The notes under the pieces are model-generated. The model saw only the letters and a list, made by a program, of their open reading frames with translations, was not told the DNA's origin and made no database searches. 64,000 nt of DNA from a virus, in IMG/VR virus record IMGVR_UViG_3300043409_002109, positions 64,001 to 128,000 of that record, one strand, 5' to 3'. Positions 10,304 through 52,768 of this stretch are shown in pieces (positions within the stretch are counted from its first letter, which is position 1; every line of letters begins with the position of its first letter). Position numbers and translations under genes: made by a program.

Positions 10304-10956
10304 TAGAAGCCTTCTAGTTTAATCTTAGGCTTCTTCTGGTATTCGAGAATATCATCAATGATATTTAGTTCCTTCGCTTCCTTGGCGCTAAAGAATATTG
10401 AAGTCTGACCAGCAAAGTATTTTGCCCAATTGGTTTTATTCATCTTGGTTCGCTTACGAATTATCTCATTCATAGTATCAAGGCCCCAGTTGTAGCACTT
10501 AACATGAGAATCTAATTCGACTACAGAGCTTATCTGAGTTTCAGAGATAGGCTCGTGATAGAAGAGGCGGGCACTAGGGAATGCCACTCTAATGTCGCCA
10601 GCCTGCATCAGGAGGAATCCTCCTGAATAAGCCATACCTTGTACTACCGTGATGATAGGACAGTCTACGGCGCGCAAGGTGTCGTAGATAGCTAGGGTTT
10701 GGACTACATCTCCACCGGGGCTGTTTATCATAACCTTAATCGGTGCACTGTCCTCAGCTGCTAGATATTCTATCTGAGAACATATGGCAGACCCTAAGGT
10801 AGGTTCTATCTCTCCTCCGATAAGTATAGTTCTTGTATTTGCGCCGAAGCCGGCGAGAGAGTGAGGAGTCCAAGAGTTAGCAGCACTATCGTGCTCTTCG
10901 TCCTCTTCTTCGGATTCCTCCTTGATATAAAAATTGTTCATTGTATTCAGTATCAT
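10303..10956 (-). CDS. clpP: ClpP-family peptidase subunit
   Basis: INSPGG, AIYD, GMAYSGG (catalytic Ser), FYHEP (His), FSAKEA...IIDDI. Confidence 0.9.
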   Translation of the reverse strand: MILNTMNNFYIKEESEEEDEEHDSAANSWTPHSLAGFGANTRTILIGGEIEPTLGSAICSQIEYLAAEDSAPIKVMINSPGGDVVQTLAIYDTLRAVDCPIITVVQGMAYSGGFLLMQAGDIRVAFPSARLFYHEPISETQISSVVELDSHVKCYNWGLDTMNEIIRKRTKMNKTNWAKYFAGQTSIFFSAKEAKELNIIDDILEYQKKPKIKLEGF

Positions 10957-44705: not shown

Positions 44706-44731
44706 ATGATGACGCCCAAAGGCGTCATCAT
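44706..44731 (-). terminator. Hairpin closing the Ubl operon
   Basis: ATGATGACGCC-CAAA-GGCGTCATCAT, 11 nt after the Ubl stop. Confidence 0.6.
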
Positions 44732-44742
44732 CTTGTTCTATT

Positions 44743-45003
44743 TTAGAACTTGGTACAGTAATGCAGTGCGCCTTTGACCACGCCTGTGGCGCTTACGAGG
44801 TCTCCTGCGTAAACCTGCTCACTATCCCAACGATTCTTATCTACGGTCTGGCCGTTGACAGCAATCTCGTTGTTAATGGAGCAGTCGGCATTATAAACTT
44901 CACGCGCACGGTCAAGCACACGACGAAGGGTTACTACGCTTTCACCCGGGAAATCTAGCTGCTTCTGGCCGTTGCCAGGAAGACGAAGAAATTCTACTTT
45001 CAT
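44743..45003 (-). CDS. Ubiquitin-like beta-grasp protein (ThiS/MoaD-like) with C-terminal extension
   Basis: MKVEFL..., TL..VL, IAVNG, V..GD.V.....VKG-ALHYCTKF; directly after E1. Confidence 0.8.
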   Translation of the reverse strand: MKVEFLRLPGNGQKQLDFPGESVVTLRRVLDRAREVYNADCSINNEIAVNGQTVDKNRWDSEQVYAGDLVSATGVVKGALHYCTKF

Positions 45004-45005
45004 TT

Positions 45006-45755
45006 TTAATTCTCTGATTGTTCTGTTGTTGAAGCACGACACAAAGATCGTACAGTAAGATTGGGAGCAAAGTGGAACATAGTCCTACGACGGTCTAGCA
45101 TGTTCCAAGGTTCACCAGTAGAGTCTTGAATCATTCGATCACACATCTGATGGACCAGGAAAGATACTGTGTTGAATACTAGGGTACTACATATCTTACG
45201 ATTGCATGGACCTTCTGGTGTTTCAGCATCATTCCCTAAGCTGTTAAGCCAAACGTCTACTTGCTCACTATCTAGATTATCTAGAAGATTTACTTGGCCG
45301 AAGTCAAATCCAAGCCTTGTCTCGAAAACTCCAAGAATCTGAGGATTCATCCGGAAGACTTCAGCGACTGCTCGTCTAGAGTCAAAAGAATCTGTAGCCA
45401 GAACTAAAGGTCCGCCTTCTGCAATAGTCGATTCTTTCGAAAAGAATTCTGCATGAGTAGTTACATCTATTTCTGGATTGAATCTGCGGAGTACATGTGC
45501 AAGTGCATCTACCTTTTGCAGGCCTATGTGTTCAACATCATAGGCCTGATTGGGAAGATTGTGTGGCTCGACCTGATCACGATCCCAAAGATCGAAACGA
45601 GTAAAGCCCATTCGAGCTGCTAAGAGAGCAGCATTGCTGCCAACAGCCCCACAGCCTACAACAATAACTCTGCATTCAGCTAAAGCAGGATTAAACCAAG
45701 AAGAATGTCTTTGAAAACTAACCTTCTTCTCAAATTCAACGGGCGCTTGCGTCAT
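45006..45755 (-). CDS. E1-like ThiF/MoeB adenylyltransferase
   Basis: GCGAVG, DRDQVEPHNLPNQ, KVDAL, ATDS..SR, candidate catalytic Cys in EGPCNRK. Confidence 0.92.
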   Translation of the reverse strand: MTQAPVEFEKKVSFQRHSSWFNPALAECRVIVVGCGAVGSNAALLAARMGFTRFDLWDRDQVEPHNLPNQAYDVEHIGLQKVDALAHVLRRFNPEIDVTTHAEFFSKESTIAEGGPLVLATDSFDSRRAVAEVFRMNPQILGVFETRLGFDFGQVNLLDNLDSEQVDVWLNSLGNDAETPEGPCNRKICSTLVFNTVSFLVHQMCDRMIQDSTGEPWNMLDRRRTMFHFAPNLTVRSLCRASTTEQSEN

Positions 45756-47052
45756 TTTCTTTCCTGGACTTTTTATTCTTATTCTTATTCTTATTCTCGT
45801 AAGCGTTAACGTTCTTGAGGAAAAGCTTCATCCATTCATTGTCTAGCTCTTTAGCAATTCCTGGCATTCTCTCAGAAAGTTTATAACCAAAAGCAATTTC
45901 AGCAGCAGCAACAAAGAGATCTGCACCAAAGGTGTCTTGCCCTATAGCAAGCTGTCTAAAATCTTCTCTAGCATCTTTATAAGGAGCCATAGAATCAGCG
46001 TTCACCTTAAAAGCATAGAGAGTTGGAACATCATTCTTGTCTTCTTCGAATAGAAGAGCACTCATAATTTTCCAACAGTACTTAGCTTCTAACGAGTCTG
46101 GATCCCCAAAATACTGATCCATTTCTTTCATGAACCTCGCAGTAGGAACTTCACTAGCTTGAAGTGTCTTAGCGTTTGTAATAGCTTCTGCACATTCAGA
46201 AAGAGTTGGGTAACTTGGTGCGACCCAAGAAAGAATAAATCCATCTTTAATCGAAGTGTTCTGGCCAGTCTGTTTCGTCGTAGAGTCCTGGGACTTTCCA
46301 CCAGTGTGGGTTTGCCCCTGCACAGGAAAATTTTTAGTGCCATTACTATTATTGCTACCTCCTGTATAAGCAGTAGAGGTATGAACTCTTGTCTTAATTC
46401 TTTCTTTCAGGAGGGTGTCAATTTTCGCAAAGTCGAATCCATCGGAGATATGAAAGGTGGCATTTTGTACCTCGGCCCCCAAAACCGGATCGTAAAGACG
46501 ACAAAAGTATTCATCTTTCTGATTAAGGATTACCATCATAACAGGCTGAGAAGGATTATCTTCTGTGATTTTACGAGCAATCCAATCTTTCCACTGCTCA
46601 TTATCAGTACCGCTTGGATTACAAGCCATCTGGACGTGAGAGTGACACCAGACTGCCATACGAGAACAGTCTAGGTTGAATGCTTCTAGAGCTTCATCTC
46701 TGGGGGGGATTCTATTGCCCTCTTCATCCACTGGAGGAACCAAAGTCCCTTCAGTGTTACGAACCATCAGGCCATGACGCTCGCGAAGCTCGAATGCAAG
46801 CTTCAAAAGCATGTTCCCGTCAGTCTCGACTGTTTGTCCAGTAACAGTTTGTTCTGGAATTAGAATATCAGAAATGAAATAGTGAATCATCTTATTCTTA
46901 TGATCGACTTCTCTATCTATCATATGAAACCACTGACATTCTTGTGCGTTACACTTAGCAGTTAGATACCTTGCCTGCTCTAGTGCAAATCGATCCCAGG
47001 TTATCTGGTATCGATACCGTGTACTAAGCAGTTCCGGTGTTGTTGCTTTCAT
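45736..47052 (-). CDS. JAB/MPN+ metallo-isopeptidase (DUB-like) with C-terminal extension
   Basis: N-terminal catalytic E (AQECQW) and WCHSHVQMACNPSGTD = HxH-x7-S-x2-D JAMM motif. Confidence 0.88.
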   Translation of the reverse strand: MKATTPELLSTRYRYQITWDRFALEQARYLTAKCNAQECQWFHMIDREVDHKNKMIHYFISDILIPEQTVTGQTVETDGNMLLKLAFELRERHGLMVRNTEGTLVPPVDEEGNRIPPRDEALEAFNLDCSRMAVWCHSHVQMACNPSGTDNEQWKDWIARKITEDNPSQPVMMVILNQKDEYFCRLYDPVLGAEVQNATFHISDGFDFAKIDTLLKERIKTRVHTSTAYTGGSNNSNGTKNFPVQGQTHTGGKSQDSTTKQTGQNTSIKDGFILSWVAPSYPTLSECAEAITNAKTLQASEVPTARFMKEMDQYFGDPDSLEAKYCWKIMSALLFEEDKNDVPTLYAFKVNADSMAPYKDAREDFRQLAIGQDTFGADLFVAAAEIAFGYKLSERMPGIAKELDNEWMKLFLKNVNAYENKNKNKNKKSRKENDASAR

Positions 47053-49513
47053 TATTTTCCTGTTGTTCGTTTAGAACTTTTTCAATTTTTGCAGTTTGAT
47101 TCACAAGAATACCTTCGTATTTTGTATAGCCTTTTCGAAGAATACTACCCATTCTTTTCTCTACTTCTGCATTTGCATTTTCTGGAGTTGAAACTACAGT
47201 TATAGTTTTTCCACCTGAAGAAGGAATGATCCAATTAAAGCCTTGCTTTATCATTGATCCGAATCGAATGACTACATCAGGCAAACCATCAGTATATTTT
47301 ATCTGATAGTAAAGATGATTGGTATCATTTGTACTATTAACATAATTGAAAGTTTTTTCTTCAAAAGAATAACTATGAATTAATGTTGGGATTTCAGATA
47401 CTTCTGGAAAGTAAGTGTATTCTTTTCCCCAATGATCGGCTGGATCTGCATTACTTACCCAGCTATTCAATGTTAAGAGAATCAAGTTCAAGTCTTCATT
47501 CTGAAAGCATTGCCATAATGCAGTAGTAGCTTCTCCTGCACAAACTCTAGCTGAATGAGTAAACATAGAACTAATACTTGAATAATCTATTGGATTAATT
47601 ATTAATGCAGCTGTATGTGGATGCAATTTAATTGTTCTTAATGCATTCTTATCAACATTTCTCTCTTCTGGACGAACGCCAAAGATTGTATATTTTTCCG
47701 CAGGAAATAATTCAATAGTTGGGCTATCTCCTGGAACAACCATAGAGACTTTGAAAAGGTATGGACCTCCGACTCTAGAGCCCCACTTAGTTTCCCACTC
47801 TGGGTCTCTTGCTCCTACTCTAATCTTATTAGGCCGAATTGTCCTAGCAATAACTTGATGAAGGAACCAGTTGCTGTTCAAAGAGCATTCTTTATTTTTA
47901 GAAACACTTTCAATTGCACCAGAGACTTTATTCTTATAAAGAACATCAAGAACTATCCAGTTCTGGCGTAACCAAATCTGTTGAATATTAGGTAAGGTTT
48001 CAATACCCAATTCTTTAAGAATATCATCTTGTGAAACTGCAGATTTTAGAGCTAATTCATTCAGAATATCAAAATCTTTTTTAACTTGATCTAATTTTTT
48101 CTGCTGAGCATCTAAAGTATTATTCCAATTTTTAATTTCTTGTTCTTTAGCTAAGAGTATTCTTTTTAGCTCCTTTAATTGATCTACGTTAGCCTGTCTA
48201 ATCGCAAGTATTTGATTGCGTTTAGACTGATGCTGCTTGTATATAGATTCAAATTCAAGAACATTTTTCTCTTTATTCTGGGCAGCATTTAAATTTCTTT
48301 TAAAATTTCTACCAGATTCTGTTCTTACTAGAAGTTTAGAAAAATTCATATTTTGCCAAGATTCACTTGGTAATATTTTTTTTTCTAAAAGAATATTCTC
48401 ATATTTTGACTGTATTTTTAGAGTGGAATTAATTTTTTCTAAGGTAGTATACCAAGATTTACCTAAGGTATTTATTTGATTAGGAAAAAATCTTTTAACT
48501 TCTTTATATCTCTCAACCAAAATAGGATGATTTTCTAAAGATGTTCTTTGTCTAGCTAAATCTTTGACTAAGATATCTAGAGCCTCGGTTAAAATAAGAT
48601 TTTCTTTCTTATCGAGGTCTGAATAAGAAGTATTAAAATGGATTAGCTGAGTTATAGAGACTTCTTCATAGGTCCCTGAAGAAGGATTTATTACTAAAAC
48701 GTTTCTTCGTATTGGGATGAACATACCAGGCTGATAATTTCCTAACGCTATCTTCTCGTTTGAAAATTCAACTTCATTTTTAGAATTAGACTTTACAAGT
48801 AAGACATTAGTTCTATGTGACGGGCCACAATTGTTTATTAGTTCTTTGAGATATTCTTTAGGAAGTAAACTGATAGGTCCATCTTCGTCTACCCAGCCTT
48901 GATATAACCCTATTTTTAACCTACGATTTTCAGCATTAAGATTTAAATTTTTATTATTAACTCTTTTTGTTGTCCAAGTATTAGGAAGTATGAAGCTCAT
49001 ATCTATTTGAGGTTCAACTAGATCGGGATATATCTCTTTAATAGAAGGTGGAATAAGATTATATTCATCGAATACTAAAGGAGTCACATATATTGTATCA
49101 GGATATGGCTGATAAGCAGATAGCTTTTGATCTGGATCCTTAGTATAAGATGAAATAGGATCATCTTCTTCTGACTGTTGTACTATCCAAAAGATACTTG
49201 AAGAACTTGAATTCTGCTTTAATTTTATATTCGACAACGAATATCTTGATCTTAAATATTCGAGATTATCTACTTTTGGGCTGCCACTAGGCTTTAGTAA
49301 TATATCTTCACTTAAAGATATAAATTTATTTTCACTTAGATTAAGTGTATATCTGGCAAGACTTTTAATTATTGGATCAAAGTCTTCATTAAAAGGATGT
49401 CCAGATCTTGTAGCGTTTGCCTGCAGTAAAGAAGGGAAAGCTAAAACAAATCGAGAAGAATGGAGCGGGCGGGATCCAAGACTAGGAAGCGCATGACGAG
49501 AAGTAGAATACAT
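47024..49513 (-). CDS. Large coiled-coil protein with E2/UBC-like domain and C-terminal WGR-like domain
   Basis: GGPYLFKV..P...PTI.L, LHPH, RVCAG, LNLILLTL.SW..NADP.D mirror the UBC fold; YYQI...V.IRFG...A..E..K.....KGY mirrors WGR. Confidence 0.7.
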   Translation of the reverse strand: MYSTSRHALPSLGSRPLHSSRFVLAFPSLLQANATRSGHPFNEDFDPIIKSLARYTLNLSENKFISLSEDILLKPSGSPKVDNLEYLRSRYSLSNIKLKQNSSSSSIFWIVQQSEEDDPISSYTKDPDQKLSAYQPYPDTIYVTPLVFDEYNLIPPSIKEIYPDLVEPQIDMSFILPNTWTTKRVNNKNLNLNAENRRLKIGLYQGWVDEDGPISLLPKEYLKELINNCGPSHRTNVLLVKSNSKNEVEFSNEKIALGNYQPGMFIPIRRNVLVINPSSGTYEEVSITQLIHFNTSYSDLDKKENLILTEALDILVKDLARQRTSLENHPILVERYKEVKRFFPNQINTLGKSWYTTLEKINSTLKIQSKYENILLEKKILPSESWQNMNFSKLLVRTESGRNFKRNLNAAQNKEKNVLEFESIYKQHQSKRNQILAIRQANVDQLKELKRILLAKEQEIKNWNNTLDAQQKKLDQVKKDFDILNELALKSAVSQDDILKELGIETLPNIQQIWLRQNWIVLDVLYKNKVSGAIESVSKNKECSLNSNWFLHQVIARTIRPNKIRVGARDPEWETKWGSRVGGPYLFKVSMVVPGDSPTIELFPAEKYTIFGVRPEERNVDKNALRTIKLHPHTAALIINPIDYSSISSMFTHSARVCAGEATTALWQCFQNEDLNLILLTLNSWVSNADPADHWGKEYTYFPEVSEIPTLIHSYSFEEKTFNYVNSTNDTNHLYYQIKYTDGLPDVVIRFGSMIKQGFNWIIPSSGGKTITVVSTPENANAEVEKRMGSILRKGYTKYEGILVNQTAKIEKVLNEQQENNESNNTGTA

Positions 49514-50028
49514 TATATTTCAAATCCTTTTAATATTATTTGTTCATCTATATTTTCGTCGATAGCATTAACTAAGAATTTGAATTGATTTTCACTGATC
49601 TTTACGTCAGGTAGAATCTCATAATTTTTTAGTAATAGCTGGATATTAGGTTCAAGTTCGCCTTGAGCTTTATATTTTAGTATCAATAGTGTTGGGTGAG
49701 GCCGAAGAGAGCTTAACTCTATTAAGAATTTCTTTCTTAGAGTTTCACGATGCGAAGGAGTTATATTATTTTGAAATAATATTTTAATTCTTTGATAAAA
49801 ATTCTTAGTTAATCCAGCCATAGCTTTTTTTCTTTGAGTTTCGTTCCACGTCTTTGTGGCTCTTGTGCTAGGATAATTTTTAGGTATAGAGAGAGAAAAC
49901 TTCTCCCTCTTTCCATATTTAAATTCTGGTAAAGTTTTATCTGGTATTAAATAAAAATTCTTGTAATCGTCATCCGTATTTTCAGTCGGTGTTATTGGAA
50001 CAAACTGAATCAATTGATTAAGACGCAT
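49513..50028 (-). CDS. Hypothetical protein coupled to the E2 gene
   Basis: TAATG overlap. Confidence 0.55.
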   Translation of the reverse strand: MRLNQLIQFVPITPTENTDDDYKNFYLIPDKTLPEFKYGKREKFSLSIPKNYPSTRATKTWNETQRKKAMAGLTKNFYQRIKILFQNNITPSHRETLRKKFLIELSSLRPHPTLLILKYKAQGELEPNIQLLLKNYEILPDVKISENQFKFLVNAIDENIDEQIILKGFEI

Positions 50029-50653
50029 CTTTTTCCACGGCTATAAGGGCGATGACATACAATCCAACATTGGGCGCTATGTCATCAATAAATATTTGAG
50101 GATGTTTAATCATAGGTAGTAGCTCTTTGGGTAAAACTAGACATCCTATTTCAGTTAGGATTCTTTTAGTATCTAAGAGAATATCTATGATTTTTTCAAT
50201 CTCTTCATTTTTAGATTGAAGAGTTATTTCTAACTTGTAACGAATCTTATGATATTCGATCCAGAGTTTATTAAAAGTAGATACAAGATTATATTCGTAA
50301 TCAGAGAGTAATCGAAGTACTTCTGATTGAATATGAATCTTTAGCGAGTTAAGATTAGGGATTCGATTTGTATTACGTAAACGTACTTGTACTAATCCAT
50401 TAATATAATAATTTGCTTCTATTTCAATTCCGCAACTTTTTAAGTTTATTATCTCACTAGGAGATAATCGATTATATTCATTTCTTTCTAGGAATGTTGC
50501 AGGAGATCCAGCGAATGCTAAACTTAAGCATTCTTGTGGATCCAACCTCAAAGAAATGTTGTTACTCTGGCCCTTTGTTATCAGAAGATTCGTATTTCTC
50601 ACTATCCAAGGGATAGAGTTCATTTTGAATCTCCATGATAAAAGATGGAGCAT
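50018..50653 (-). CDS. Hypothetical protein
   Basis: Packed ORF. Confidence 0.5.
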   Translation of the reverse strand: MLHLLSWRFKMNSIPWIVRNTNLLITKGQSNNISLRLDPQECLSLAFAGSPATFLERNEYNRLSPSEIINLKSCGIEIEANYYINGLVQVRLRNTNRIPNLNSLKIHIQSEVLRLLSDYEYNLVSTFNKLWIEYHKIRYKLEITLQSKNEEIEKIIDILLDTKRILTEIGCLVLPKELLPMIKHPQIFIDDIAPNVGLYVIALIAVEKDAS

Positions 50654-50804
50654 CTTTTATGTCATAGACTAATAAAGGAAAGCCACACTCTTCACACAAT
50701 AGTCTTTCTGGTAGAATTTCTAATGCTTGAGCATAACCGCAGTTATCTAGATCTATACAATAAACTTGATATAACATCTTTTGACCTAACCAGCAGGGCG
50801 GCAT
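50562..50804 (-). CDS. Small Zn-ribbon protein
   Basis: C.....C ... CEECG; start probably the internal Met. Confidence 0.45.
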   Translation of the reverse strand: MPPCWLGQKMLYQVYCIDLDNCGYAQALEILPERLLCEECGFPLLVYDIKDAPSFIMEIQNELYPLDSEKYESSDNKGPE

Positions 50805-51031: not shown

Positions 51032-52768
51032 TTATCTACAGAAACCTATAGAAGGTTTATGTAGAATATTTTGTTTGAAAACTGTATCAATAAATTCTTT
51101 ATTGATAGTTTGATTTGTTTTTTCATAAGCGTAGATGTTTGTAGCAGCTACTCTTAAGAGTCTTCGGACGCGCTGTTCGATCTGTCGAACTTGTTTTATT
51201 TTGGCAAGCTCAGAGAAAGCTTCGTCGGTCCATTCAATTGGTAATGTTTTAATATTGTAGTCAAGAACTATCTTGGGCAGAAGATAATCATTTAAGATTT
51301 TATGACGTTCTTCATATTCATATTCTCTAAATCGAATGAACTCTAATCTGTCTTTAAGAGCTTCAGGTATTCTATCTTCATAGTTTACTGTAGCAACGAA
51401 TAGAATCTTGCTAAGATCTACCTCTAACTCTATATAGCGATCGATAAATTCTTTATTTTGAGAGTTATCTAATGCGCTTAAAAGAGCTGATGCGGCTGAA
51501 CCTCTATGAGTATCAAGTTTATCTAGTTCATCCAAGAGTATACAAGGATTCATTGATCCAGCATTGCAAAGAGCATTGATAATTCTTCCGCATTTACTAC
51601 TGATGTATGTTCTTCTGTGACCTACTATATCGGCTTCATCACCGATACCTCCTAAGCTGACGGTCTGGAAGGACCGTCCAGAAGCTTCTGCTAAGGTCCT
51701 AGCTATACTGGATTTACCTGTTCCTGGAGGTCCAGATAAGCAGATAATAGCTCCTGAACTATTACCTTTAATCTTTTCTATGCACATATGTTCAATCAGA
51801 TAATCTTTTACATCATCTAGACCATAGTGGCTTCTGTTAAGATCTTCTCTTAATGCTTTTAGAGAGAAATCTCTTTCTGAACTTTTGCCCCATGGGATTT
51901 TGAATACCCAGCTAAGATAATCTTTTAGCATAGATGCTTCGGTTGAATTTCCTGGCATCGAATCTAATCTACTTATTTCCTCAGAAATTTTTGGGCGATG
52001 CATCTCTGGGAAAGCTGTTATATCCAATCTTTCTTTATAAGAAAGATTCTTAGAAGAAGATGTATTACGCTCTTGTTTCTCTATCTTAGAATTAGTAGCA
52101 GGTGATTTCTTTTTGTGTTTTCTTTCCATAACAAGATCACTAATTTGAGTAGTGGTCATAAGCCATCTTTCTAAATTAGATTCTTCTTGAAGATACTTAA
52201 TTCTAGATTCTTTTTCAGAGAAAACATAATCTGCCATATAATCCATACGACGGAATAAGTTTACTTCTTCTGTTAAGAGATTACATAAAGTCTGTTCAAA
52301 TATATCAGAGTTTTTAGAGATGACTTTAGATAGAGCTTCAATATCTGCATAGATACCATGTTCATCATCTTCTAACTCTTCTATATAAAATTGAGTAGTA
52401 CAATAGATTCTAGAGAGTCCATCAGTATCTATATCTAAAATAACATCTTCAGTAACGAATGCGCGTCCTTCAATTTTAATTGTATATAAAGACATCTCAT
52501 CATTGATATCTTCAGGCTCTGTTATAGAGCCTAATAATCCTATGTCATATACATTATCTAGATACTCTCCAAGATCTTCCATCATTAGAGATGTGTCTCT
52601 AGTTTTGGGTATAGCAAAGAGAATGCGACGTTTAATTTGATCTCTTCCTAAAGAAAATTCTACAGGAGAAAAATACTTTAGACGTTCATTCGAAATTAAT
52701 AAGTGAATTACTTGTCCAGGGATAGGTATGTCATCATTTAATTCTAATACGTAAACGGGATAGTTCAT
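51032..52768 (-). CDS. Lon-type AAA+ ATPase lacking the protease domain (LonN + AAA), ending in IGF
   Basis: HYGL..VK, GPPGTGKS, SLGG..DE.DI.GHRRTY, LLDELDK, DR.E; stops at 578 aa with KPSIGFCR and no Lon_C. Confidence 0.9.
   Translation of the reverse strand: MNYPVYVLELNDDIPIPGQVIHLLISNERLKYFSPVEFSLGRDQIKRRILFAIPKTRDTSLMMEDLGEYLDNVYDIGLLGSITEPEDINDEMSLYTIKIEGRAFVTEDVILDIDTDGLSRIYCTTQFYIEELEDDEHGIYADIEALSKVISKNSDIFEQTLCNLLTEEVNLFRRMDYMADYVFSEKESRIKYLQEESNLERWLMTTTQISDLVMERKHKKKSPATNSKIEKQERNTSSSKNLSYKERLDITAFPEMHRPKISEEISRLDSMPGNSTEASMLKDYLSWVFKIPWGKSSERDFSLKALREDLNRSHYGLDDVKDYLIEHMCIEKIKGNSSGAIICLSGPPGTGKSSIARTLAEASGRSFQTVSLGGIGDEADIVGHRRTYISSKCGRIINALCNAGSMNPCILLDELDKLDTHRGSAASALLSALDNSQNKEFIDRYIELEVDLSKILFVATVNYEDRIPEALKDRLEFIRFREYEYEERHKILNDYLLPKIVLDYNIKTLPIEWTDEAFSELAKIKQVRQIEQRVRRLLRVAATNIYAYEKTNQTINKEFIDTVFKQNILHKPSIGFCR

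What the first reader, a model, noticed from the sequence alone, without database searches (positions are those of the whole stretch)
44743..49513. Complete phage-encoded ubiquitin-like conjugation operon (E2 - JAB - E1 - Ubl)
Seen: four overlapping or adjacent - strand genes closed by a hairpin at 44706-44731. (i) An 829-aa protein whose C-terminal part follows the UBC/E2 pattern in order: GGPYLFKV..P...PTIEL, IKLHPH, ARVCAG (candidate catalytic Cys near 47541), LNLILLTLNSWVSNADPAD. (ii) A JAMM isopeptidase with E...HSH-x7-S-x2-D intact. (iii) An E1/ThiF with intact nucleotide-binding motifs and a candidate thioester Cys (EGPC). (iv) An 86-aa beta-grasp Ubl. No thiamine, molybdopterin or cysteine sulfur-transfer genes are nearby. 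Established: E1+E2+JAB+Ubl is the layout of bacterial ubiquitination systems such as Bil/Bub, and Bil acts as host anti-phage defence. Inference: here the phage carries its own protein-conjugation pathway inside a core early/replication region. It may tag host or defence proteins, exclude competing phages, or remove host Ubl marks. To my knowledge such a phage-borne pathway is not functionally characterised.
Basis: partly seen in the sequence, partly recalled or inferred. Interest (0 to 1): 0.95.

Follow-up and report, generated by a model that had tools for sequence, protein, structure and literature searches.

The report
Phage-encoded ubiquitin-like protein-tagging gene set
An uncultured 150-kb phage and its relatives keep, among their replication genes, what looks like a complete ubiquitin-style protein-tagging kit (tag precursor, trimming protease, activating enzyme, and a new transfer-enzyme-like domain in a giant protein), a kind of system so far characterised only as a bacterial defence against phages.

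Summary
Four translationally coupled minus-strand genes at 44743-49513 sit in a complete 150-kb phage record.

- **E1:** a solid ThiF-type enzyme (Pfam 8e-25). Cys184 is invariant across six phage E1s.
- **JAB:** the full JAMM motif is kept down to 33% identity.
- **Ubl:** the 86-aa protein ends in an invariant "VKG" plus a variable tail. Relatives encode di- and tri-Ubl precursors like polyubiquitin, so the protease must mature it.
- **829-aa protein:** no sequence model calls it an E2. A confident AlphaFold model of residues 540-715 (pLDDT 94.5) resembles only UBC-superfamily folds, but weakly (Z ≤ 4.0). His-Pro-His and Cys658 are (near-)invariant across 56-71 relatives.
- **WGR domain:** follows the core at residues 717-803 (Z 9.8).

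The order core-JAB-E1-Ubl is the same in 7 of 7 related phage loci, though these form one deep lineage. The phage has no sulfur-relay genes.

Best reading (confidence 0.55): a phage-owned Ubl conjugation pathway whose target is unknown. It is not a member of Bil, because its E1 is a minimal single-domain enzyme.

No paper I could search describes it. Earlier unchecked notes of this scan report similar cassettes on other phage DNA (T4-like, crAss-like, retron-linked).

Verdict: new variant of a known kind.

The parts
47024..49513 (-). 829-aa multidomain protein: unknown N-terminal region, coiled-coil-like middle, UBC-like core, C-terminal WGR domain
   Evidence: ORF. Six homologs at 44-60% identity. 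241 relatives at E<=1e-3 in the profile search, most sharing only the core. Coiled-coil Pfam families in relatives and coiled-coil PDB hits. The N-terminal ~400 aa stay unexplained.
47369..47896 (-). E2/UBC-like core domain (residues 540-715) with near-invariant His631, invariant Pro632 and His633, and invariant Cys658 (codon 47542-47540), the candidate thioester site
   Evidence: AlphaFold model pLDDT 94.5, pTM 0.87. In VIA-align against 48,161 chains only 68 reach Z>=2; ranks 1-20 are all E2 enzymes, best 1yrv Z 4.0, rmsd 4.4 A, 110 aligned. On the second look all 46 listed entries are UBC superfamily. Invariant residues. No Pfam or PADLOC E2 model hits.
47105..47365 (-). WGR domain (residues ~717-803)
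   Evidence: Fold search: 2ra8 Z 9.8 (rmsd 2.2 A, 71 aligned); PARP1 WGR Z 7.5 and 7.3; PARP3 WGR Z 7.2. Foldseek 2ra8 probability 1.00. Pfam WGR is below threshold at 15.3 bits against 22. Pfam WGR in 4 of 56 relatives, best 8e-12.
45736..47052 (-). 438-aa JAB/JAMM metallopeptidase (N-terminal ~220 aa) with a low-complexity linker and an unknown C-terminal domain; predicted pro-Ubl maturase and deconjugase
   Evidence: Prok-JAB 0.0018-0.006, below threshold. PADLOC JAB 4.7e-4. E67, H137, S138, H139, S147 and D150 are invariant at 33% identity. A homolog sits next to the E1 in 7 of 7 loci.
45006..45755 (-). 249-aa minimal ThiF-type E1 (one adenylation domain); candidate thioester Cys184 (codon 45206-45204)
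   Evidence: Pfam ThiF 8.1e-25, 87.8 bits. PADLOC Cap2 'E1-E2' models to 4e-18. PDB sequence hits include TcdA, UBA5, MccB, SAE2, MoeB and Cap2. G34, G36, G39, D58, K81, D122, R127 and C184 are invariant across six phage E1s down to 19% identity; C189 is not conserved.
44743..45003 (-). 86-aa pro-Ubl: ThiS/MoaD-like beta-grasp ending in invariant ...VKG (Gly78 codon 44772-44770) followed by an 8-aa tail, ALHYCTKF
   Evidence: Pfam ThiS 0.012. The family profile hits E. coli ThiS 1f0z at E 0.34. The VKG end is invariant in 12 units from 6 loci, with variable tails or tandem repeats.
44706..44731 (.). Perfect 11-bp hairpin 12 nt after the Ubl stop; a possible operon-end or RNA-stability element
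   Evidence: There is no U-run on the minus strand.
49513..50804 (-). Three co-oriented, overlapping upstream genes (171 aa, 211 aa, and an 80-aa C-x5-C...C-x2-C zinc-ribbon protein) that may belong to the module
   Evidence: Overlaps. The same genes occur in L002. A zinc-ribbon ORF lies upstream of the core gene in all 7 loci: BLAST groups four of them, and I matched the window, L002 and L013 copies by eye on the Cys pattern. No family hits. Their role is untested.
51032..52768 (-). Protease-less Lon-like AAA+ ATPase, a frequent upstream neighbour of the module
   Evidence: Pfam AAA 2e-20 and phrog_15585 3.8e-91. A homolog lies 1.3-2.2 kb upstream of the core gene in G001 and G002 and also in L002. 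It is absent from G003 and G005.

Best explanation
The cluster is a phage-owned ubiquitin-like protein conjugation pathway. The proposed steps are as follows. (1) The genes are expressed as one translationally coupled operon inside the replication block. (2) The JAMM peptidase cuts the 86-aa pro-Ubl after Gly78, removing ALHYCTKF. In relatives it would cut di- and tri-Ubl polyproteins into units. (3) The minimal ThiF-type E1, presumably a homodimer like MoeB, ThiF or UBA5, adenylates Gly78 and takes the Ubl onto Cys184 of its crossover loop. (4) The Ubl passes to Cys658 of the UBC-like domain in the 829-aa protein. That protein's large N-terminal and coiled-coil arm and its WGR domain choose the target, so it would act as an E2/E3 hybrid. 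The WGR domain points to proteins on nucleic acid. (5) The same JAMM enzyme can reverse the mark. What is shown: gene order, domain identities, conserved catalytic residues, precursor architecture, absence of a sulfur relay. What is inferred: every chemical step, the target and the biological purpose. The most likely purposes are remodelling or marking host or phage DNA-associated proteins during replication, or tagging proteins for the phage's own Lon-like AAA+/ClpP machinery.
For: The E1 is a ThiF member with the adenylation residues and an invariant Cys184. The JAMM set is intact and conserved. The Ubl end ...VKG is invariant in 12 units, followed by N, NR, longer tails or the next repeat. 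L006 has a di-Ubl and L012/L015 a tri-Ubl, so endoproteolytic maturation to a C-terminal Gly is required. There is precedent: BilA homologs have 2-9-aa overhangs after the Gly (Hör preprint), and the BilC DUB removes Ala98 of E. aridi BilA (PMC10557695). The core domain models at pLDDT 94.5, and its only PDB neighbours are E2, UEV, RWD and bacterial E2 folds. Its rmsd of 3.4-4.4 A over 99-110 residues matches the range reported for the validated bacterial E2 BilB against UBE2D2 (3.2 A over 99). P632, H633 and C658 are invariant and H631 nearly so. The atlas's nearest clusters are small viral proteins, one with Prok-E2_D in 11% of members. Core-JAB-E1-Ubl is contiguous and co-oriented in 7 of 7 loci, kept while the core protein diverges to ~15-20% identity. 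The phage has no rhodanese or cysteine desulfurase. A real thi operon looks quite different.
Against: No sequence model recognises the core as an E2, and Foldseek finds nothing significant. VIA Z is at most 4.0, which the tool warns may reflect only a common arrangement. I could not obtain a residue-level superposition, so the equivalence of Cys658 to the E2 catalytic Cys rests on order and motif logic. The HPH-to-Cys spacing is 24 residues, against ~8 in canonical E2s. All six phage E1s replace the Arg of the NLxRQ motif (NLPNQ here), so adenylation competence is not assured. The seven syntenic loci are one lineage that shares a long block, so the co-occurrence is inherited and not independent evidence of coupling. 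The Ubl fold was not modelled, and its ThiS signal is below threshold.
Confidence: 0.55

Rival explanations
1. E2-independent Ubl system, like archaeal SAMP/UbaA/JAMM1 or Thermus TtuB/TtuC. The E1, JAB and Ubl work as proposed, but the E1 conjugates directly. The UBC-like domain of the 829-aa protein would then be a non-catalytic adaptor (UEV- or RWD-like), a scaffold, or the main substrate.
For: The minimal single-domain E1 is the type used in E2-less systems. The core's structural similarity to E2s is weak (Z at most 4.0), and the same lists include non-catalytic UEV and RWD folds. No E2 sequence model matches.
Against: An invariant Cys preceded by a conserved His-Pro-His flap across 56-71 very divergent relatives is what a catalytic E2 would show, not a UEV or RWD adaptor. 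UEVs typically lack the Cys (general knowledge). The core gene is retained next to JAB and E1 in all 7 loci.
Confidence: 0.2
2. Same chemistry but a defence purpose. The cassette would be a phage-carried Bil-like system that tags the virion proteins of competing phages (superinfection exclusion), as host Bil does to tail fibres.
For: Bil systems conjugate a Ubl to the phage central tail fibre (Hör preprint abstract). The E1 hits PADLOC defence models. Phages do carry defence systems (general knowledge).
Against: The cassette is not in a variable island. It sits at a fixed place in the conserved replication block (Zn-ribbon ... PhoH-Whirly) in all 7 related phages, which fits a core lifecycle function. 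The architecture differs from Bil: minimal E1, giant E2-like protein, and WGR or Hc1-like DNA-linked neighbours.
Confidence: 0.12
3. Sulfur-carrier system. The E1 adenylates the small beta-grasp protein to make a thiocarboxylate for a cofactor, tRNA or DNA thio-modification. The JAB only trims the precursor, as Mec+ does for CysO.
For: The Ubl's only sequence signals are ThiS-like. The E1 is MoeB/ThiF-sized, with the Cys at the ThiF/MoeB crossover-loop position (plus general knowledge).
Against: The complete phage has no rhodanese, cysteine desulfurase or thi/moa partner genes; compare the real thi operon in L017. The Ubl ends in a single Gly with tails, and occurs as tandem di- and tri-Ubl polyproteins and as 2-3 paralogs per genome. 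That layout is typical of protein modifiers. A conserved UBC-like Cys protein always accompanies it.
Confidence: 0.05
4. The E1-like enzyme is not a Ubl activator at all. It would work on a peptide or nucleotide substrate (MccB-, PaaA- or TcdA-like), and the neighbouring genes would be unrelated.
For: The best PDB sequence hits include TcdA and MccB. The canonical Arg of NLxRQ is replaced.
Against: The gene is translationally coupled to a beta-grasp protein with an invariant Gly end and to a JAMM peptidase in every locus. The match to those PDB proteins covers only the shared Rossmann half.
Confidence: 0.03

Closest known systems
Bil (BilABCD, 'bacterial ISG15-like') anti-phage ubiquitination systems (Hör et al. 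preprint 10.1101/2023.09.04.556158; Chambers et al. preprint PMC10557695)
   Same: The same four roles appear in one operon: Ubl, E1, E2 and a JAB-family DUB. The Ubl is made with residues after the reactive Gly that the DUB must remove. The E2 is a divergent UBC fold that superposes on eukaryotic E2s at ~3-4 A over ~100 residues, and it has a conserved His near the Cys.
   Different: This cassette is encoded by a phage, in its conserved replication block, not in a bacterial defence island. The E1 is one 249-aa adenylation domain, whereas BilD has IAD + AAD + a mobile CYS domain. The E2-like domain belongs to a family unknown to Pfam and PADLOC and sits at residues 540-715 of an 829-aa protein (up to 1115 aa in relatives) with a coiled coil and, here, a WGR domain. 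The Ubl is a single ThiS-like beta-grasp, or tandem copies of it cut into units, not the fused two-domain BilA. The JAB carries an extra C-terminal domain.
Type II CBASS Cap2 (E2-E1 fusion) / Cap3 (JAB)
   Same: These give the E1's best hits among defence models (PADLOC 'E1-E2', 4e-18; PDB Cap2 7tsx/7to3). A JAB partner and thioester-based conjugation are shared.
   Different: There is no E1-E2 fusion. No CD-NTase substrate is recognised in the cluster. A dedicated Ubl is present instead of a CD-NTase C-terminus.
Bub pathways (Ye et al. preprint PMC11601596)
   Same: Bub is a bacterial E1/E2/Ubl set in which the Ubl is released from a fusion precursor by a peptidase. BubB appears among the weak structural neighbours of the core (9eav, Z 2.3).
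   Different: Bub works through oxyester (Ser) intermediates, its E1 lacks a catalytic Cys, and it uses a serine protease (abstract). Here both the E1 and the E2-like domain keep invariant Cys residues, and the peptidase is a JAMM metalloenzyme.
Lambda/T1 tail-assembly TAPI (Ubl) + TAPK (JAB + NlpC/P60) (Iyer, Burroughs and Aravind 2006, PMC1779556)
   Same: This is the only previously described phage Ubl + JAB pairing I found. The predicted JAB cleavage is at the C-terminal Gly of the Ubl.
   Different: It has no E1 and no E2, lies in the tail module, and is not a conjugation system.
Eukaryotic polyubiquitin precursors
   Same: Head-to-tail Ubl repeats, each ending in the reactive Gly, with a short C-terminal cap on the last unit. 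Relatives L006 (2 units) and L012/L015 (3 units) show this.
   Different: The unit is ThiS-like, not ubiquitin, and ends in Lys-Gly rather than Gly-Gly. The window's own gene is a single unit with an 8-aa tail.

Membership tests
ThiF/MoeB/E1 adenylating superfamily (PF00899) | Match to the family model above its curated cut-off, with the GxGxxG nucleotide loop and the Mg/ATP Asp and Lys | tested here: met
   87.8 bits against a 28.1-bit cut-off, E 8.1e-25. G34, G36, G39, D58, K81 and D122 are invariant in six phage E1s.
ThiF/MoeB/E1 adenylating superfamily (PF00899) | Arg of the (S)NLxRQ ATP-binding motif | tested here: not met
   The motif reads NLPNQ. It aligns to NTNRQ of TcdA. The Arg position is N or G in all six phage E1s. 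This is a clade-wide deviation, not a lesion in one gene.
JAMM/MPN+ metallopeptidases (Prok-JAB PF14464) | Catalytic motif E...H-x-H-x7-S-x2-D | tested here: met
   E67, H137, H139, S147 and D150 are present and invariant in L002 and L006.
JAMM/MPN+ metallopeptidases (Prok-JAB PF14464) | Match to the family model above its curated cut-off | tested here: not met
   16.9-18.6 bits against a cut-off of 25. PADLOC JAB 4.7e-4.
UBC/E2 superfamily | UBC alpha/beta fold | tested here: inconclusive
   Model pLDDT 94.5. All of ranks 1-20 among 48,161 chains, and all 46 listed entries on the second look, are UBC superfamily. However Z is only 2.0-4.0, with rmsd 3.1-5.3 A over 69-110 residues. Foldseek finds nothing significant. 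The evidence leans towards membership of the fold.
UBC/E2 superfamily | Match to an E2 sequence model (UQ_con or Prok-E2_A-E; PADLOC E2) | tested here: not met
   No hit for the protein, the isolated domain, 56 long relatives or 10 short relatives. PF14460 finds nothing in the whole phage at E<=10.
UBC/E2 superfamily | Catalytic Cys after an HPN-type flap, at the structurally equivalent position | not testable with these tools
   HPH (631-633) and Cys658 occur in the right order and are (near-)invariant. The spacing is 24 residues, and the fold tools return no residue-level superposition.
Bil (BilABCD) | E1 with inactive + active adenylation domains and a mobile CYS domain | tested here: not met
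   The E1 is 249 aa with one adenylation domain. The BilD architecture is described in PMC10557695.
Bil (BilABCD) | Ubl with a reactive C-terminal Gly, pre-processed by the JAB DUB | tested here: inconclusive
   The invariant VKG plus tails or tandem repeats imply processing. Cleavage itself is untested.
Bil (BilABCD) | Bacterial anti-phage defence locus | tested here: not met
   The cassette lies in a complete phage genome, at a fixed position in the replication block of 7 related phages.
WGR domain (PF05406) | WGR fold | tested here: met
   2ra8 Z 9.8 (rmsd 2.2 A, 71 aligned); PARP1 and PARP3 WGR Z 7.0-7.5. Pfam is below threshold at 15.3 against 22 bits.
ThiS/MoaD sulfur-carrier pathways | Sulfur donor and acceptor partners (rhodanese, cysteine desulfurase, ThiG/ThiH/MoaE) in the operon or genome | tested here: not met
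   No PF00581 or PF00266 anywhere in the phage at E<=0.1, and none among the neighbours. The contrast is the thi operon in L017. MoaE and ThiG were not searched genome-wide.
Type II CBASS (Cap2/Cap3) | E2-E1 fusion protein next to a CD-NTase | tested here: not met
   The E1 and the E2-like domain are separate genes with the JAB between them. No CD-NTase family hit among the neighbours.

The most novel reading that the evidence does not exclude
A deep lineage of large marine phages runs its own ubiquitin-like system as part of its core replication programme. The system would have polyubiquitin-style precursor genes, a previously unrecognised giant E2/E3-hybrid family (241 relatives, none named) and DNA-linked accessory parts (WGR, Hc1-like histone). 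It would feed tagged proteins to the phage's own protease-less Lon AAA+ unfoldase and ClpP, making a virus-encoded 'ubiquitin-proteasome-like' pathway in bacteria.
Probability: 0.12. Interest if true: 0.92.

Novelty: new variant of a known kind. Interest (0 to 1): 0.72.

Why it matters
In bacteria, Ubl conjugation with E1, E2 and a DUB has been shown experimentally only as host immunity against phages (Bil, CBASS Cap2/3, probably Bub). A phage that keeps its own full kit in its replication block would reverse that picture. Viruses of bacteria, like those of eukaryotes, would be using ubiquitin-type tagging for their own ends.

The cassette also offers three concrete things to study:
- A new E2-like family. 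It has 241 metagenomic relatives, all of the twelve proteins I looked up are unnamed, and it is invisible to Pfam and PADLOC.
- The smallest E1 paired with an E2-like partner, which bears on how E1-to-E2 transfer evolved.
- Natural polyubiquitin-like precursor genes outside eukaryotes.

The parts are small and soluble-looking, so the pathway can be tested directly in E. coli.

Public phage genomes carry related genes annotated only as 'thiamine biosynthesis protein' or 'hypothetical' (crAss-like phages with JAMM + E1; Xanthomonas jumbo phages with an HPH...C protein + E1). Those annotations are probably misleading.

Tried and rejected
- **Sequence searches for an E2.** Pfam, PADLOC and PHROGs on the full protein, the isolated core, 56 long relatives and 10 short relatives found no E2 model. 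PF14460 found nothing in the whole phage. PDB phmmer on the 829-aa protein gave only a chance-level galactosyltransferase hit.
- **Foldseek against the PDB.** Neither model gave a significant hit for the core. The WGR domain filled the first VIA list, so I had to model the core alone.
- **Family profile against PDB sequences.** The coiled-coil region swamped the result, so it was uninformative.
- **Profile-profile test against a genuine bacterial E2.** I could reach only one probable Cap2-like ORF on an E. coli plasmid. hhalign gave probability 0.2%, which is uninformative. I had no way to fetch a set of annotated E2s.
- **Xanthomonas phage PhiXhv-12 892-aa protein next to ThiF.** BLAST was not significant, hhalign gave 12% probability although the motifs line up, and my core HMM found no hit. 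I keep it as a lead only. Its 70-aa and 243-aa neighbours do not match the Ubl or JAB.
- **Close relatives in IMG/VR.** None found with the protein or the close alignment. The diverse alignment was too variable for the tool. P0021 found nothing.
- **The look-up of encoding contigs.** Synteny could therefore be checked in only 7 loci, not across all 241 relatives.
- **N-terminal 400 residues.** The atlas gave no usable lead.
- **Phage megablast.** No near relative in INPHARED.
- **Structure caps.** Both AlphaFold jobs went on the E2 question, so the Ubl, the JAB and its C-terminal domain, the E1 and any complex were not modelled.

Full report
**What is there.** The window is bases 64001-128000 of a 150,205-bp IMG/VR virus record that CheckV rates 100% complete. 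Earlier notes of this scan describe it as a marine contractile-tailed phage. On the minus strand, four genes run 829 aa (47024-49513), 438 aa (45736-47052), 249 aa (45006-45755) and an 86-aa protein (ATG at 45003 to 44743). Successive genes overlap by 29 and 20 nt, and the last starts 2 nt after the E1 stop. The 171-aa and 211-aa genes upstream also overlap, so the coupled unit is longer than the finding. A perfect 11-bp hairpin follows the last stop codon but has no U-run on the coding strand.

**E1.** The 249-aa protein matches Pfam ThiF at 8.1e-25 (87.8 bits; cut-off 28.1) and PADLOC Cap2 'E1-E2' models down to 4e-18. PDB sequence hits span TcdA, UBA5, MccB, SAE2, MoeB, ThiF and Cap2. I aligned it with five other phage E1s down to 19% identity: one metagenome relative, one distant IMG/VR relative, a Xanthomonas jumbo phage and two crAss-like phages. 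The nucleotide loop, D58, K81, D122, R127 and Cys184 are invariant, while Cys189 is not. Cys184 is therefore the candidate thioester residue. One caveat is that the Arg of the NLxRQ motif is N or G in all six.

**JAB.** The Pfam and PADLOC scores are below threshold. The catalytic set E67...H137-S-H139-x7-S147-x2-D150 is complete, and it is invariant in homologs at 63% and 33% identity. A low-complexity linker and a ~170-aa domain of unknown function follow.

**Ubl.** The sequence signal is weak: Pfam ThiS 0.012, and a family profile hits E. coli ThiS at E 0.34. The family context is what decides the matter. Twelve units from six loci all end in the invariant [A/S]-T-x-x-V-K-G, followed by N, NR, a longer unrelated tail, or the next repeat. 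L006 encodes a di-Ubl and L012/L015 a tri-Ubl, and several genomes carry two or three Ubl genes. This is a polyubiquitin-style precursor layout, and it requires an endopeptidase to expose the C-terminal Gly. In the window the tail is ALHYCTKF. The precedent is direct. Hör et al. note 2-9-aa overhangs after the Gly in 12 BilA homologs. Chambers et al. show that the BilC DUB removes Ala98 to expose Gly97.

**The 829-aa protein.** No sequence library recognises any part of it. It has six homologs at 44-60% identity in the C-terminal part, and a profile search found 241 relatives (E<=1e-3). Most share only profile positions ~558-715. Across 56-71 relatives at ~15-30% identity the invariant or near-invariant residues are P561, G583, P584, H631, P632, H633, C658, G660, W685, D693, W695, G696 and F702.

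AlphaFold with this alignment gives pLDDT 92 for residues 540-829 and 94.5 for residues 540-715 alone. Residues 717-803 are a WGR domain (2ra8 Z 9.8; PARP1 and PARP3 WGR Z 7.0-7.5).

For the core alone, Foldseek finds nothing. An exhaustive VIA-align pass over 48,161 chains finds only 68 with Z>=2. Ranks 1-20 are all E2 enzymes, with 1yrv best at Z 4.0, rmsd 4.4 A over 110 residues. Most of the rest are UEV or RWD folds, the CdnG-E2 or BubB. On a second pass, all 46 listed entries belong to the UBC superfamily. These Z-scores are low, and the tool warns about that. What carries weight is that nothing else appears in the lists. The validated bacterial E2 BilB is just as far from UBE2D2 (3.2 A over 99 residues).

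The order of elements fits the UBC plan: a beta-meander, then T-I-K-L-H-P-H, then an insert, then C-x-G-E-A, then helices ending in N-A-D-P-x-D. The flap-to-Cys spacing is 24 residues rather than ~8. From memory and unverified: some eukaryotic E2s also read HPH instead of HPN. The atlas's nearest clusters are small viral proteins, one with Prok-E2_D in 11% of members, which I treat as a lead only. I could not obtain a residue-level superposition.

**Conservation of the module.** One metagenome locus (L002) and five IMG/VR records (G001-G005) carry core, JAB, E1 and Ubl(s) contiguous, co-oriented and in the same order. Clustering all ORFs shows that the seven loci share a much longer block: Zn-ribbon ... 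core-JAB-E1-(Hc1-like)-Ubl-PhoH-Whirly and beyond. They are therefore one deep lineage, and the linkage is inherited rather than repeatedly assembled. It has nevertheless survived divergence to ~15-20% identity in the core protein. G001 and G004 are near-duplicates.

A protease-less Lon-like AAA+ lies 1.3-2.2 kb upstream in four loci, is absent from two, and cannot be assessed in one. The phage's ClpP is at window ~10342-10839.

Beyond the lineage, crAss-like phages have a JAMM-motif ORF immediately upstream of their E1. Xanthomonas phage PhiXhv-12 has an 892-aa protein with HPH...C-L-G next to a 'thiamine biosynthesis protein'. I treat both as leads.

**Alternatives.** A sulfur-carrier role is unlikely. 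The complete phage has no rhodanese or cysteine desulfurase, a real thi operon looks quite different, and tandem Ubl polyproteins fit a protein modifier. An E2-less system remains possible if the UBC-like domain is an adaptor, but an invariant Cys argues against that. A Bil-like defence carried by the phage would use the same chemistry. The fixed position in the replication block argues for a core function.

**Comparison with known systems.** The cassette works like Bil, with the same four roles, pro-Ubl trimming and a divergent UBC. It is not a member, because its E1 lacks the IAD and CYS domains, its E2-like family is new, and its context is viral. It differs from Cap2/3 in having no fusion and no CD-NTase. 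It differs from Bub, which uses oxyester chemistry and a serine protease, and from lambda TAPI/TAPK, which has no E1 or E2.

**Literature and earlier notes.** The Aravind-lab jumbo-phage survey does not mention such systems, and seven full-text searches found no description. The nearest is a report of E1-like genes in Asgard viruses. Earlier unchecked notes of this scan report similar phage cassettes on other DNA: T4-like, crAss001-like and retron-linked.

Noticed in passing
L006:12781-13287; L012:12002-12640; L015:3165-3803: Natural di-Ubl and tri-Ubl polyprotein genes in related phages. Each ~70-aa unit ends in FATGSVKG and is joined to the next by 1-4 residues. L014 has three separate Ubl paralogs with different tails, one Gly/Pro-rich.
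   Followed up: partly
window 50565-50804 (-); L002:8740-8955; L006:6787-7005; L012:6715-6924; L013:8457-8690; L014:4619-4894: A small (70-92 aa) C-x5-C...C-x2-C zinc-ribbon protein lies upstream of the core gene in all seven loci, directly adjacent in four. It has no family hit. It could be a fifth component, for example an E3-like adaptor, but this is untested.
   Followed up: partly
L006:12156-12344; L012:11014-11211; L014:9643-9828; L015:4594-4791: [quoted passage not shown] The window and L002 lack it but have a WGR domain on the E2-like protein. Both features point to nucleic-acid-associated targets.
   Followed up: partly
L006:5940-6806; L012:5900-6715; L013:9671-10546; L014:3838-4656: A 272-292-aa family upstream of the Zn-ribbon has a G-[SG]...D-x-D pattern that recalls pol-beta-type nucleotidyltransferases. 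It has no Pfam hit, and its relation to the window's 211-aa and 171-aa genes is unknown.
   Followed up: no
window 51032-52768 (-) and ~10342-10839 (-): The protease-less Lon-like AAA+ travels with the Ubl module in 4 of 6 assessable loci, and the phage has its own ClpP ~34 kb away. This raises the untested idea of tag-directed proteolysis.
   Followed up: partly
L004:2583-3794 and L005:2910-3929 (crAss-like phages PQ006092.1, PP511520.1): The ORF directly upstream of the annotated 'E1 enzyme family' or 'ThiF family' gene carries an intact JAMM motif (HSH-x7-S-x2-D). It is annotated as hypothetical.
   Followed up: partly
L003:1241-3919 (Xanthomonas phage PhiXhv-12, PV764601.1): An 892-aa hypothetical protein next to a ThiF annotated 'thiamine biosynthesis protein' has G-x-Y, HPH, C-L-G and D...W motifs that line up with the core family (hhalign E 0.0023 but probability 12%). 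It is a possible distant member in a cultured jumbo phage.
   Followed up: partly
window 45739-46260 (-): The C-terminal ~170 residues of the JAB protein form a conserved domain (48% identity across the whole protein to its L002 homolog) with no family hit. Its length varies among relatives (JAB proteins of 245-451 aa).
   Followed up: no
L016 (E. coli IncC plasmid CP042646.1, 23148-31438): A Cap2-like E1 region appears split over overlapping ORFs, next to a Cap3-like JAB (Prok-JAB 1.6e-8). It is largely unannotated in the PLSDB gene table and may be a frameshifted CBASS.
   Followed up: no
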